Shown in pieces: positions 6,937-7,114 of a stretch of DNA of 48,066 nucleotides; within the stretch, counting starts at the first letter, position 1; the number at the start of each line of letters is the position of its first letter. The DNA comes from an uncultured Candidatus Saccharibacteria bacterium (GTDB lineage Bacteria > Patescibacteriota > Minisyncoccia > Phycocordibacterales > XYD1-FULL-46-19). The stretch lies in assembly GCA_964355855.1 (NCBI GenBank), contig CAYHFD010000003.1, positions 11,487-59,552 of the forward strand, given 5' to 3'. A model generated the notes under the pieces. That model was not told where the DNA came from, did not search any database, and worked only from the letters and a program-made list of their open reading frames with translations. The position numbers and the translations under genes are program-made.

Positions 6937-7114
6937 TCTACCATTACATGGACTGTATACCTTTTGGCTAAAGTTTTCGCCGGCTCAACTTTAGGCTCAA
7001 AAGCTTTTCGATCCCTGCCCGCAAGGCAAGCAGTTGCCTTGCTCGGGGGAGCAAAATTAAAACGCCTTGCGGCGTTCTAAATTTTGCTCCGTTGGATAGA
7101 TAGGGTTAGAACCT
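6937..7114. repeat. 178-nt structured repeat, copy 1 (candidate tRNA-derived ncRNA or att relic)
   Basis: Near-identical to 14400-14578, apart from one hairpin with fully compensated stem changes and a hairpin loop. Contains 5-6 hairpins and the split tRNA-Asn 3' end TTCGATCCCTGCC...GGGGGAGC on the + strand. Confidence 0.8.

What the first reader, a model, noticed from the sequence alone, without database searches (positions are those of the whole stretch)
6937..7114. About 178-nt structured element with a fully compensated hairpin swap and an embedded, split tRNA-Asn 3' end
Copies at 6937-7114 and 14400-14578 are nearly identical. The one exception is an 8-bp stem that differs at 5 positions yet stays perfectly paired: gcaaggca/tgccttgc versus gtgagtga/tcactcac, with the conserved loop agcagt. 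This 25-nt hairpin splits the 21-nt string TTCGATCCCTGCCGGGGGAGC, which is exactly the T-loop-to-3'-end of the tRNA-Asn gene (minus strand 15187-15167) but here lies on the + strand.

Further 5', GACTGTATA (6951-6959, 14415-14423) reproduces the exon-intron junction of that tRNA (GACTGT|ATA). GCTAAAG and AAAGCTT..TCGA echo intron segments in the same order. The + strand ends with the hairpin AACGCC-TTGC-GGCGTT plus CTAAATTTTG, which is terminator-like.

This could be a miniaturised relic of an intron-containing tRNA-Asn, or a tRNA-derived structured RNA under selection for the inserted hairpin.
Basis: seen in the sequence. Interest (0 to 1): 0.72.

Follow-up and report, generated by a model that had tools for sequence, protein, structure and literature searches.

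The report
Displaced tRNA-Asn flank: terminator and integration scar
The two 180-base copies are the folded, non-coding stretch that normally lies directly after the tRNA-Asn gene in these tiny groundwater bacteria (Patescibacteria), moved away and doubled when foreign DNA was inserted at the end of that gene, so they are neither a broken tRNA gene nor a known RNA.

Summary
The two copies (6932-7116, 14396-14580) differ mostly in one 9-bp hairpin, where 4 pairs are swapped and all are compensated. That hairpin interrupts an exact 21-nt copy of the tRNA-Asn 3' end, in inverted orientation. The claimed "intron echoes" are at chance level.

Related Patescibacteria (CPR) contigs explain the element. 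In L008, L010, L011 and L014 it follows the intron-containing tRNA-Asn gene directly. The last bases of the tRNA (GGAGC) form the base of the element's terminator hairpin. The "split tRNA end" is the far arm of a palindrome centred on that terminator.

In a sister population (L012/L013 with L005), a large serine recombinase element sits exactly between the tRNA and the element. Each window copy starts with the same scar as that insertion, GTTCTAA-N15-GGAGC. In the tRNA the matching motif is 5 bp closer to GGAGC, which is the known attP/attB offset of serine integrases. L023 shows the same scar with both ends on one contig.

The window copies are therefore attR-type junctions left by at least two insertions at tRNA-Asn. 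Hairpins H1, H2 and h0 keep pairing through 12 double changes, so the element is not decaying. The role of the part beyond the terminator and attB arm is not settled, and RNA or DNA level cannot be told apart. No Rfam match; few copies.

The parts
7091..7114 (-). Copy 1: element-derived (attP-type) half-site. On the minus strand it reads AGGTTCTAACCCTATCTATCCAAC and runs into GGAGC.
   Evidence: It aligns to the tRNA-Asn 3' half of L008 with a 5-nt insertion. It carries the signature GTTCTAA-N15-GGAGC. The same signature is found at the proven insertion junction in L005 and at L023 position 5179.
7048..7090 (.). Copy 1: hairpin H3. GGAGCAAAATT..AAATTTTGCTCC encloses AACGCC-TTGC-GGCGTT. It is a bidirectional intrinsic terminator. 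Its tRNA-proximal arm is the B' arm of the attachment site.
   Evidence: A terminator is called on both strands. All 19 pairs are invariant in 3 sequences. In L008 the GGAGC of this stem is the end of the tRNA itself.
7007..7052 (+). Copy 1: inverted, exact copy of the tRNA-Asn 3' end (7007-7019 TTCGATCCCTGCC and 7044-7052 CGGGGGAGC), interrupted by hairpin H2 (7021-7042).
   Evidence: Read directly from the sequence. With the tRNA 3' half it folds into one long hairpin in L008 (-74.3 kcal/mol, z = -10.9). H2 has 4 pairs changed on both sides between the copies.
6960..7003 (.). Copy 1: hairpin H1, 15 pairs with an 11-nt loop.
   Evidence: Pairing is kept between the window and L008 despite roughly half of the bases differing. 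6 pairs are changed on both sides.
6939..6952 (.). Copy 1: small hairpin h0 (CCATTACATGG).
   Evidence: 2 pairs are changed on both sides in L008, which has TTCCTTACAGGAA.
6924..6938 (-). Copy 1 only: decayed direct copy of the tRNA-Asn 3' end (minus strand GATCCTGCCGGGAGC). It abuts the promoter-like GTGTTAACA motif of the next cassette and pairs with the inverted copy.
   Evidence: Read directly from the sequence. The homologous position in L008 has GACCCCTGCCGAGGGAG. Closing helix 4 is 94% paired.
14396..14578 (.). Copy 2, same order of parts:
- h0, 14403-14416
- H1, 14424-14467
- inverted tRNA end, 14471-14481 and 14507-14516
- H2, 14484-14505
- H3 terminator, 14512-14554
- attP-type half-site, 14555-14578
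   Evidence: Alignment of the copies. H2 located. Terminator. Signature GTTCTAA-N15-GGAGC at 14576.
15165..15493 (-). tRNA-Asn(GTT) gene with a 253-nt group I intron (15206-15458). Its last bases, GGAGC (15171-15167), are the integration point.
   Evidence: Rfam RF00028, 94 bits. The spliced sequence is called tRNA-Asn. It is homologous to L008 1381-1729.
15107..15163 (-). Present 3' flank of the tRNA, unrelated in sequence to the element. It consists of a terminator followed by an imperfect inverted copy of the tRNA 3' half (15107-15130).
   Evidence: It folds back onto the tRNA 3' half (-43.7 kcal/mol, z = -5.9).
5371..5397 (-). Cassette junction with the same scar signature (ATTCTCA-N15-GGAGC), followed by the GTGTTAACA promoter-like motif. 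A second one lies at 2800-2826.
   Evidence: On the minus strand 4 of 5 matches have a spacing of exactly 15; no match on the plus strand does (two matches, spacings 6 and 13).

Best explanation
The element is the non-coding 3' flank of the intron-containing tRNA-Asn gene of this Patescibacteria lineage.

Shown by comparison with related contigs:
1. In related contigs it follows the tRNA directly. The tRNA's last bases (GGAGC) pair with the element's GCUCC at the base of a bidirectional intrinsic terminator (H3).
2. The inverted 21-mer mirrors the tRNA 3' end on the far side of that terminator.
3. DNA is inserted at GGAGC by large-serine-recombinase elements. The tRNA end together with the first ~20 bp of the element is the attB. 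After insertion, the element is left next to an element-derived half-site, GTTCT(A/G)A-N15-GGAGC.

Inferred for the window:
- At least two such insertions occurred. The first brought the 7.3-kb block, with its own copy of the element at its tRNA-proximal end. The second brought the small C39-peptidase unit.
- The minus-strand order is now: tRNA | C39 unit | half-site + copy 2 | 7.3-kb block | half-site + copy 1 | older cassette array.

How it most likely works today:
- H3 ends the transcripts of the genes that run into it. These are the AsnRS-like gene for copy 1, and the C39 and His-phosphatase genes for copy 2.
- Together with the further fold-back hairpins (mirror arm, H2, H1, h0) it insulates the downstream cassettes.
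- The perfect arms and the compensated swap in H2 are kept by selection for fold-back, by template-switch homogenisation of DNA palindromes, or by both.
For: Adjacency to the tRNA:
- In L008, L010, L011 and L014 the tRNA-Asn 3' end ..GGGGGAGC is followed at once by AAAATTTAGAACGCC.. of the element.
- L008 is syntenic with the window: PepF at 71% and tRNA plus intron at 83%.

Occupied versus empty site:
- L005 is 100% identical to L008 over 7.6 kb from GGAGC onward, but differs upstream of it.
- L012 and L013 have the tRNA followed by a recombinase C-terminus reading into it (Zn_ribbon_recom PF13408, 5e-10). L013 is from the same genome assembly as L005. Homologues of the recombinase carry PF07508 and PF00239.

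Both ends on one contig:
- In L023 a recombinase homologue overlaps an intron-less tRNA-Asn.
- About 6 kb downstream lies GTTCTGA-N15-GGAGC followed by a terminator.

Half-site geometry:
- Scar half-sites have N15; the tRNA has GTTCGAT-N10-GGAGC.
- This 5-bp offset is the zinc-ribbon-motif shift between attP and attB reported for serine integrases (PMC3783163).

Terminator and structure:
- A terminator is called on both strands.
- 97% of cells are paired and 12 pairs are changed on both sides, with 0 of 500 shuffles reaching this.

Other points:
- The 7.3-kb block lies in three different surroundings in L001, L002 and L004, next to a large serine recombinase in L001. None of those loci has the element.
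- Template switching can create and maintain perfect stems and multi-base compensated changes (PMC8794818).
Against: - No recombinase gene is present in the 48-kb window. The only unassigned ORF of 400 aa or more (977-2221) has no Pfam or PHROG hit.
- No free attP or excised circle was seen.
- The tRNA-proximal end of the C39 unit does not show a clear N15 half-site.
- The serine-recombinase model does not need the inverted 21-mer, H2, H1 or h0. L023's native flank has only a terminator. These parts are nevertheless conserved.
- The H2-H3 half is 96.7% identical between lineages whose tRNA plus intron is only 83% identical. This points to selection or horizontal spread that the model does not specify.
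- Only two independent lineages of the element were found, so the covariation evidence rests on three sequences.
Confidence: 0.6

Rival explanations
1. The element is a functional structured RNA. It could be a small RNA read from the + strand and ended by H3. It could also be a cis-acting 3' trailer on the tRNA strand, whose antisense 21-mer clamps the tRNA-Asn 3' half in read-through transcripts, marking them for processing or decay.
For: - 12 compensated pairs in H1, H2 and h0.
- The loop and upper stem of H2 (AAGCAGTT) are invariant while the lower stem varies.
- The 21-mer stays 21/21 complementary to the tRNA in both lineages, whereas neighbouring H1 diverged by about half.
- Two unrelated flanks, the element in L008 and the present flank in the window, both fold back on the tRNA 3' half.
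- Folding z-scores are -4.0 for the + strand and -5.4 for the - strand.
Against: - No conserved promoter lies upstream on either strand (and inspection).
- On the tRNA strand, the body of the element lies beyond a good terminator.
- G-U against A-C evidence does not pick a strand: about 5 cases favour minus and 3 favour plus.
- There is no Rfam match.
- Compensated changes in perfect palindromes also arise by template switching (PMC8794818).
Confidence: 0.2
2. The element is a miniature non-autonomous mobile unit: a gene-less cassette flanked by tRNA-end repeats. It is moved in trans by the serine recombinase and restores an attB-like site at the tRNA after each insertion.
For: - In L008 it is bracketed by the tRNA 3' end and a decayed direct copy of it.
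- The window has two copies, one at the tRNA-proximal end of the 7.3-kb block.
- The H2-H3 half is 96.7% identical across lineages, which fits horizontal spread.
- Neighbouring one-gene cassettes carry the same N15-GGAGC scar.
Against: - Copy number is very low. There is one hit per related genome or contig in the pattern scans of the genome and metagenome collections, and none elsewhere in about 240 kb of related loci with the covariance model.
- The distal tRNA-like repeat has attB-type spacing, not attP-type spacing.
- 150 bp is very small for a recombining circle.
Confidence: 0.12
3. It is a decayed second tRNA-Asn gene with a shrunken intron, convergent with the real gene.
For: - The order anticodon-junction-like ATGGACTGTATA (11 of 12) ... 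T-loop-to-3'-end on one strand.
- The tail-to-tail position next to the real tRNA in L008.
Against: - The junction match has p of about 0.05 and is not conserved in L008.
- The intron 7-mers are at chance level and not collinear.
- No T-stem 5' strand, D arm or acceptor 5' strand is present.
- The left end is the exact complement of the tRNA 3' end, not an acceptor 5' strand.
- The element is conserved and compensated, so it is not decaying.
Confidence: 0.05

Closest known systems
attB/attR sites of large serine recombinases (serine integrases such as A118/LI, Bxb1, phiC31)
   Same: - Crossover lies in a short shared core (GGAGC).
- The element-derived half-site carries the distal motif 5 bp further out than the host half-site (N15 against N10).
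- The recombinase gene sits at the element end and reads into the site.
- Occupied and empty alleles are seen in one population.
   Different: - The host half-site is the 3' end of a tRNA gene.
- The host arm is also a terminator, followed by a mirrored copy of the tRNA end and extra conserved hairpins that no described serine-integrase site needs.
- No recombination was tested.
Tandem accretion of integrated elements and gene-less att-flanked remnants (CIME-type elements) at one chromosomal site. This comparison rests on my own knowledge of the Streptococcus ICE literature.
   Same: - Several units sit in a row downstream of one tRNA gene.
- Each unit is bounded by att-like repeats.
- Most units lack a recombinase.
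   Different: - The units here are mostly single genes with a shared promoter-like motif.
- The host is a CPR bacterium with a reduced genome.
- Mobility was not shown.
Bidirectional intrinsic terminators and extended palindromes shaped by template switching
   Same: - A GC-rich hairpin flanked by an A tract and a T tract, between convergent genes.
- Perfect arms and multi-base compensated changes.
   Different: The palindrome reaches 21 nt into a tRNA gene and carries a branch hairpin (H2). The adjoining H1 and h0 are conserved across lineages.
Integron attC sites and cassette arrays
   Same: - Structured, imperfectly palindromic non-coding units lie between small cargo genes.
- Cargo includes NUDIX, GNAT, methyltransferase and hydrolase genes.
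- Insertion occurs at one fixed proximal site.
   Different: - There is no tyrosine integrase IntI, and no R''/L''-L'/R' boxes.
- Cassettes carry their own promoter-like motif.
- The scars fit serine-recombinase geometry.

Membership tests
tRNA gene or tRNA pseudogene | Cloverleaf arms (acceptor, D, anticodon, T) detectable by tRNA finders or the Rfam tRNA model | tested here: not met
   ARAGORN finds nothing in the window. Rfam at E up to 10 gives no tRNA hit over 6800-7250. The bases before TTCGATCC (AGCTT) cannot pair with CCTGC.
tRNA gene or tRNA pseudogene | Collinear similarity to the 5' exon and intron of the parent gene, above chance | tested here: not met
   The best local match scores 19 against a null of 15.0 +/- 2.0, p = 0.048. 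It is not conserved in L008. The 7-mers are not collinear.
Any Rfam RNA family | Match to a covariance model at or near its gathering score | tested here: not met
   The only window hit is the group I intron. The best hits in the element region are 15 and 13 bits against thresholds of 45 and 100.
Intrinsic (Rho-independent) terminator | GC-rich stem-loop followed by a T run, placed after a gene | tested here: met
   Called on both strands in both copies. It lies 89 nt after the AsnRS-like gene, 7 nt after the C39 gene and 40 nt after the His-phosphatase gene. In L008 it follows the tRNA directly.
Large serine recombinase attachment-site junction (attR type) | Occupied and empty alleles that differ exactly at the site, with the recombinase gene at the element end | tested here: met
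   Met in relatives, not in the window itself. L008, L010, L011 and L014 are empty; L012, L013 and L005 are occupied. L023 has both ends on one contig.
Large serine recombinase attachment-site junction (attR type) | Element-derived half-site carries the distal motif about 5 bp further from the crossover than the host half-site | tested here: met
   GTTCT(A/G)A-N15-GGAGC at both copies, at L005 and at L023. The tRNA has GTTCGAT-N10-GGAGC. The rule is taken from PMC3783163.
Large serine recombinase attachment-site junction (attR type) | A cognate recombinase gene in the same element or genome | tested here: inconclusive
   No such gene is in the 48-kb window. The rest of the genome is not available.
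Large serine recombinase attachment-site junction (attR type) | Recombination at the site demonstrated | not testable with these tools
   Needs an in vitro or in vivo assay.
MITE, REP or ERIC-type dispersed intergenic repeat | Many dispersed copies per genome, with terminal inverted repeats or a cognate transposase | tested here: not met
   The anchored pattern finds one relevant locus in 185,579 species genomes, and two relevant loci in the metagenome collection, one of which is the window's own population. The covariance model R1 finds no extra copy in about 240 kb of related loci.
IS110-family bridge RNA | About 180-nt RNA next to a DEDD/serine recombinase gene, with two internal loops whose split guides pair with opposite strands of target and donor | tested here: not met
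   No such gene is nearby. The split 21-mer is collinear on one strand, not in the bridge-type arrangement (sequence). The bridge-RNA geometry is taken from my own knowledge.
T-box or other leader tied to the AsnRS-like gene | Conserved linkage to the synthetase gene, upstream of it | tested here: not met
   The element lies downstream of the gene. Relatives with the same gene block lack it. In L008 it is not next to any synthetase gene.

The most novel reading that the evidence does not exclude
The tRNA-Asn gene of these CPR bacteria may anchor a cassette-accretion platform driven by a serine recombinase, working somewhat like an integron.
- Each inserted unit would restore an attB-like junction at the tRNA end.
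- Each would leave an N15-GGAGC scar at its far end.
- The ~180-nt element would be the platform's conserved tRNA-proximal module. Its mirrored tRNA end and hairpins would be functional, either as an RNA clamp or insulator or as a DNA structure that keeps the site usable, rather than a by-product of palindrome growth.
Probability: 0.25. Interest if true: 0.7.

Novelty: new variant of a known kind. Interest (0 to 1): 0.45.

Why it matters
The finding turns an odd "tRNA-like repeat" into a readable record of site-specific insertions at one tRNA gene in an uncultured, reduced-genome bacterium.

It gives a simple sequence signature, NTTCTNA-N15-GGAGC against N10 in the tRNA. This matches the serine-integrase half-site rule and can be used to map such insertions in Patescibacteria metagenomes.

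It shows that the variable gene content next to tRNA-Asn, including an AsnRS-like/MccF-like gene block, is probably imported cargo.

It also leaves a well-defined open item. A conserved, compensated fold-back module mirrors the tRNA 3' end, and its role (RNA insulator, DNA structure or none) can be tested with RNA-seq and one recombination assay.

Tried and rejected
Known RNA families and tRNA finders
- Rfam at gathering score over the whole window, and at E up to 10 over the element: no family.
- ARAGORN: no tRNA or tmRNA. A permuted tmRNA idea was dropped.

Link to the AsnRS-like gene
- A T-box-like or tRNA-mimic role was tested. Three relatives with the same gene block lack the element. Rejected.

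The 7.3 kb between the copies as a plain island bounded by att repeats
- The tRNA-like 21-mers are inverted relative to the tRNA gene, so they are not the att repeats.
- The real scars are the 24-nt half-sites at the copies' other ends.

Other element types
- IS110 bridge RNA, IS200/IS605 omega-RNA and integron attC: no matching gene or geometry.
- MITE or REP-like repeat: too few copies.

Searches that found nothing
- Viral contig scans with two patterns.
- BLAST against the phage and plasmid collections.

Look-ups that added little
- PepF-based look-ups L017, L018, L019 and L022 had contigs ending at the locus or lacked synteny, so they added no further copy.
- The exact-protein look-up of the C39 peptidase found no record.

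Unsuccessful explanations of the mirrored 21-mer
- I tried to read it as a second serine-recombinase half-site. The spacings do not fit, and L023's native flank has no mirror copy.

Unsuccessful attempt to pick the strand
- G-U against A-C counts are mixed.

Full report
**1. What is in the sequence**

The two copies align from 6932 to 7116 and from 14396 to 14580. Outside one hairpin they differ at 6 of about 155 positions. Inside the 18 stem positions of that hairpin they differ at 8 (Fisher p = 5.6e-6).

- The hairpin (H2) is a perfect 9-bp stem with loop GCAG. It reads GCAAGGCAA/TTGCCTTGC in copy 1 and GTGAGTGAA/TTCACTCAC in copy 2.
- Four pairs are swapped and all four are compensated.
- H2 interrupts TTCGATCCCTGCC...CGGGGGAGC in copy 1 and TTCGATCCCTG...CCGGGGGAGC in copy 2. 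This is the exact last 21 nt of the tRNA-Asn gene body, on the opposite strand to that gene.
- The tRNA gene is real. Rfam finds a group I intron at 94 bits. After removing the 253-nt intron (15458-15206) by hand, ARAGORN calls a 76-nt tRNA-Asn(GTT). It misses the unspliced gene.
- The hairpin AACGCC-TTGC-GGCGTT is nested in a longer stem, GGAGCAAAATT/AAATTTTGCTCC (H3). It is scored as a terminator on both strands and is better on the minus strand.

**2. What is not above chance**

- The 9-mer GACTGTATA (11 of 12 as ATGGACTGTATA) has p of about 0.05 against shuffles. In the homologous element of L008 it is replaced by GGAACAGTAGAG.
- The 7-mer "echoes" of the intron match the number expected by chance and are not collinear.
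- No Rfam family matches the element.

**3. Organism and neighbourhood**

The genes are those of a Patescibacteria (CPR) bacterium close to Candidatus Vogelbacteria.

- Copy 1 lies 89 nt after an AsnRS catalytic-core paralogue (7203-8297, minus strand).
- Copy 2 lies between the converging ends of a His-phosphatase gene and a C39-peptidase-like gene. It is about 600 bp downstream of the tRNA-Asn gene.
- The eight genes between the copies form a block that is syntenic in three relatives (L001, L002, L004) but sits in different surroundings in each. None of those loci has the element. A functional tie to the AsnRS-like gene is therefore rejected.

**4. The key comparison**

An anchored pattern scan found the element in a Vogelbacteria genome (L005) and in a 347-kb metagenome contig (L008). 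L008 is syntenic with the window: PepF at 71% and tRNA-Asn plus intron at 83%.

In L008, and also in L010, L011 and L014, the element follows the tRNA gene directly. The sequence runs ...TTCGATCCCTGCCGGGGGAGC|AAAATTTAGAACGCCGTCAGGCGTTTTAATTTTGCTCCCCCG[H2]GGCAGGGATCGAA....

- The GGAGC at the base of H3 is the end of the tRNA.
- The "split tRNA end" is the mirror arm of a palindrome centred on the tRNA's terminator.
- The tRNA 3' half plus the element folds into one long hairpin with H2 as a side branch (-74.3 kcal/mol, z = -10.9).

In the window, the present flank of the tRNA is unrelated in sequence. It also has a terminator followed by an imperfect mirror of the tRNA 3' half (-43.7 kcal/mol, z = -5.9).

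**5. Insertions at GGAGC**

L005 is 100% identical to L008 over 7.6 kb from GGAGC onward. Upstream of GGAGC it carries different DNA ending in ...GTTCTGAACCCGGACAATAGAG.

- L013 is from the same genome assembly as L005. In L013 and in L012, the tRNA is followed after GGAGC by CCTATAGGTTGG... and by the C-terminal part of a large serine recombinase reading into the tRNA (Zn_ribbon_recom, 5e-10). Homologues of this protein carry the Recombinase and Resolvase domains.
- A 49%-identical homologue in an unrelated genomic context (L023) again overlaps a tRNA-Asn gene. About 6 kb downstream lies GTTCTGA-N15-GGAGC, followed by a plain terminator.
- Both window copies start, on the tRNA strand, with AGGTTCTAACC(CT/TC)ATCTATCCAAC-GGAGC. 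This aligns to the tRNA 3' half with a 5-nt insertion.
- The signature NTTCTNA-N15-GGAGC occurs four times on the minus strand of the window: at both copies and at two cassette junctions. It never occurs with that spacing on the plus strand. The tRNA itself has GTTCGAT-N10-GGAGC.
- A distal motif placed 5 bp further out in attP than in attB half-sites is the published rule for serine integrases (PMC3783163).

I conclude that each window copy is an attR-type hybrid: an element-derived half-site joined to the chromosomal arm.

**6. Reading of the window (inferred)**

On the minus strand the order is: PepF, ArsR-like gene, tRNA-Asn | C39 unit | half-site + copy 2 | 7.3-kb block | half-site + copy 1 | decayed tRNA end + promoter-like motif | array of one-gene cassettes (about 2300-6900).

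- Two successive insertions at the tRNA end explain this order, if the first inserted unit carried its own copy of the element at its tRNA-proximal end.
- In L001 the same block lies next to a large serine recombinase gene, which fits the block being cargo.
- No recombinase gene is present in the window itself.

**7. Is the structure maintained?**

Three distinct sequences (copy 1, copy 2, L008-type) support six helices.

- 97% of cells are paired.
- 12 pairs are changed on both sides: 6 in H1, 4 in H2 and 2 in h0. Shuffles give 4.4 +/- 1.6 (0 of 500 reach 12) and slid controls give at most 4.
- H1 differs at about half of its bases between the window and L008, yet keeps pairing.
- The H2-H3 half is 96.7% identical between lineages whose tRNA plus intron is 83% identical.

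The element is therefore not decaying. G-U against A-C evidence does not choose a strand, and no conserved promoter precedes the element on either strand. Template switching at DNA palindromes can create and maintain perfect stems and multi-base compensated changes without RNA-level selection (PMC8794818).

**8. Copy number and relatives**

- The pattern scans gave one relevant locus in the species-genome collection. They gave two in the metagenome collection, one of which (L009) is the window's own population.
- The covariance model found no further copy in about 240 kb of related loci.
- The viral, phage and plasmid collections gave nothing.
- This is a locus-bound element, not a dispersed repeat.

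**9. Verdict**

Best supported:
- The element is the native 3' flank of tRNA-Asn.
- It is a bidirectional terminator that doubles as the attB arm of serine-recombinase elements, plus a conserved fold-back module that mirrors the tRNA end.
- It is present twice in the window as insertion scars.

Shown:
- adjacency to the tRNA in relatives;
- the breakpoint at GGAGC;
- recombinase genes at the occupied sites;
- the half-site geometry;
- the terminator;
- the compensated hairpins.

Inferred:
- the two-step history of the window;
- the insulating role of the fold-back.

Open:
- why the mirror 21-mer, H2, H1 and h0 are kept;
- whether they act as RNA or as DNA.

The relic-tRNA reading is not supported.

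Noticed in passing
window 15165-15493 (minus strand); L016 500-575; L021 about 1518-1593; L023 11129-11204: The tRNA-Asn(GTT) gene carries a 253-nt group I intron between anticodon positions 35 and 36, and ARAGORN misses it. 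Relatives at the same locus (L016, L021) and L023 have an intron-less tRNA-Asn. L016 and L023 have the identical 3' end. The intron is therefore variably present.
   Followed up: partly
window about 2300-6900 (minus strand); L010 3400-8930: This is an array of mostly single-gene units: a truncated purH fragment, NYN, nucleoside deoxyribosyltransferase, NUDIX, alpha/beta hydrolase and methyltransferase. Several are preceded by NTTCTCA-N15-GGAGCC plus GTGTTAACAAATTTACAGAGGTGTGGTAG, and several end in CCGCCC..GGGCGG-TTTTCTTTTACCCC terminators. The same modules recur in L008/L010. It looks like cassette accretion downstream of tRNA-Asn.
   Followed up: partly
window 7203-14359: The conserved 8-gene block contains an AsnRS catalytic-core paralogue, an S66 (MccF-like) LD-carboxypeptidase, a CotS-like kinase, a methyltransferase, a NUDIX gene, a 356-aa protein matching phrog_35625 ('tRNA synthetase') and a His phosphatase. 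It sits in a different genomic context in each relative. In L001 it lies between tRNA-Gln and a large serine recombinase. It may be mobile cargo with aminoacyl-nucleotide chemistry.
   Followed up: partly
window 14497-14516 versus 5385-5397 and 2814-2826: The 3' arm of copy 2's H2 plus its flank (GTTCACTCACTCC) resembles the cassette-junction motif GTTCTCACTTCC. The hairpin 'swap' may have started as a patch copied from such a junction and then been mirrored onto the other arm.
   Followed up: no
window 977-2221 (minus strand): A 414-aa ORF at the far end of the cassette array has no Pfam or PHROG hit. Just upstream lies GGCGGGGGAGTATGGCTGACCCC, which resembles the sequence after the element in L008.
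   Followed up: no
window 15610-15641 and 15946-15977: A 32-nt inverted repeat, 97% complementary, brackets the ArsR-like HTH gene next to the tRNA.
   Followed up: no
window 1-270; 33050-33500 and 37594-37637: There are 60-nt repeats at the left edge of the window. Short TTTCGGATTTCGTGCTTCG-type repeats, including a perfect 27-nt inverted pair, lie in two intergenic regions.
   Followed up: no
L001 14162-14286: A LOOT RNA (RF03000, 79.6 bits) lies inside the recombinase-bearing, phage-like region of a relative.
   Followed up: no
L021 about 1460-1520 (minus strand): Downstream of another intron-less tRNA-Asn, the terminator is followed by ATAGTAGGGTTTAGAAC. This is the mirror image of the half-site found next to the window copies (GTTCTAACCCTATCTAT).
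   Followed up: no
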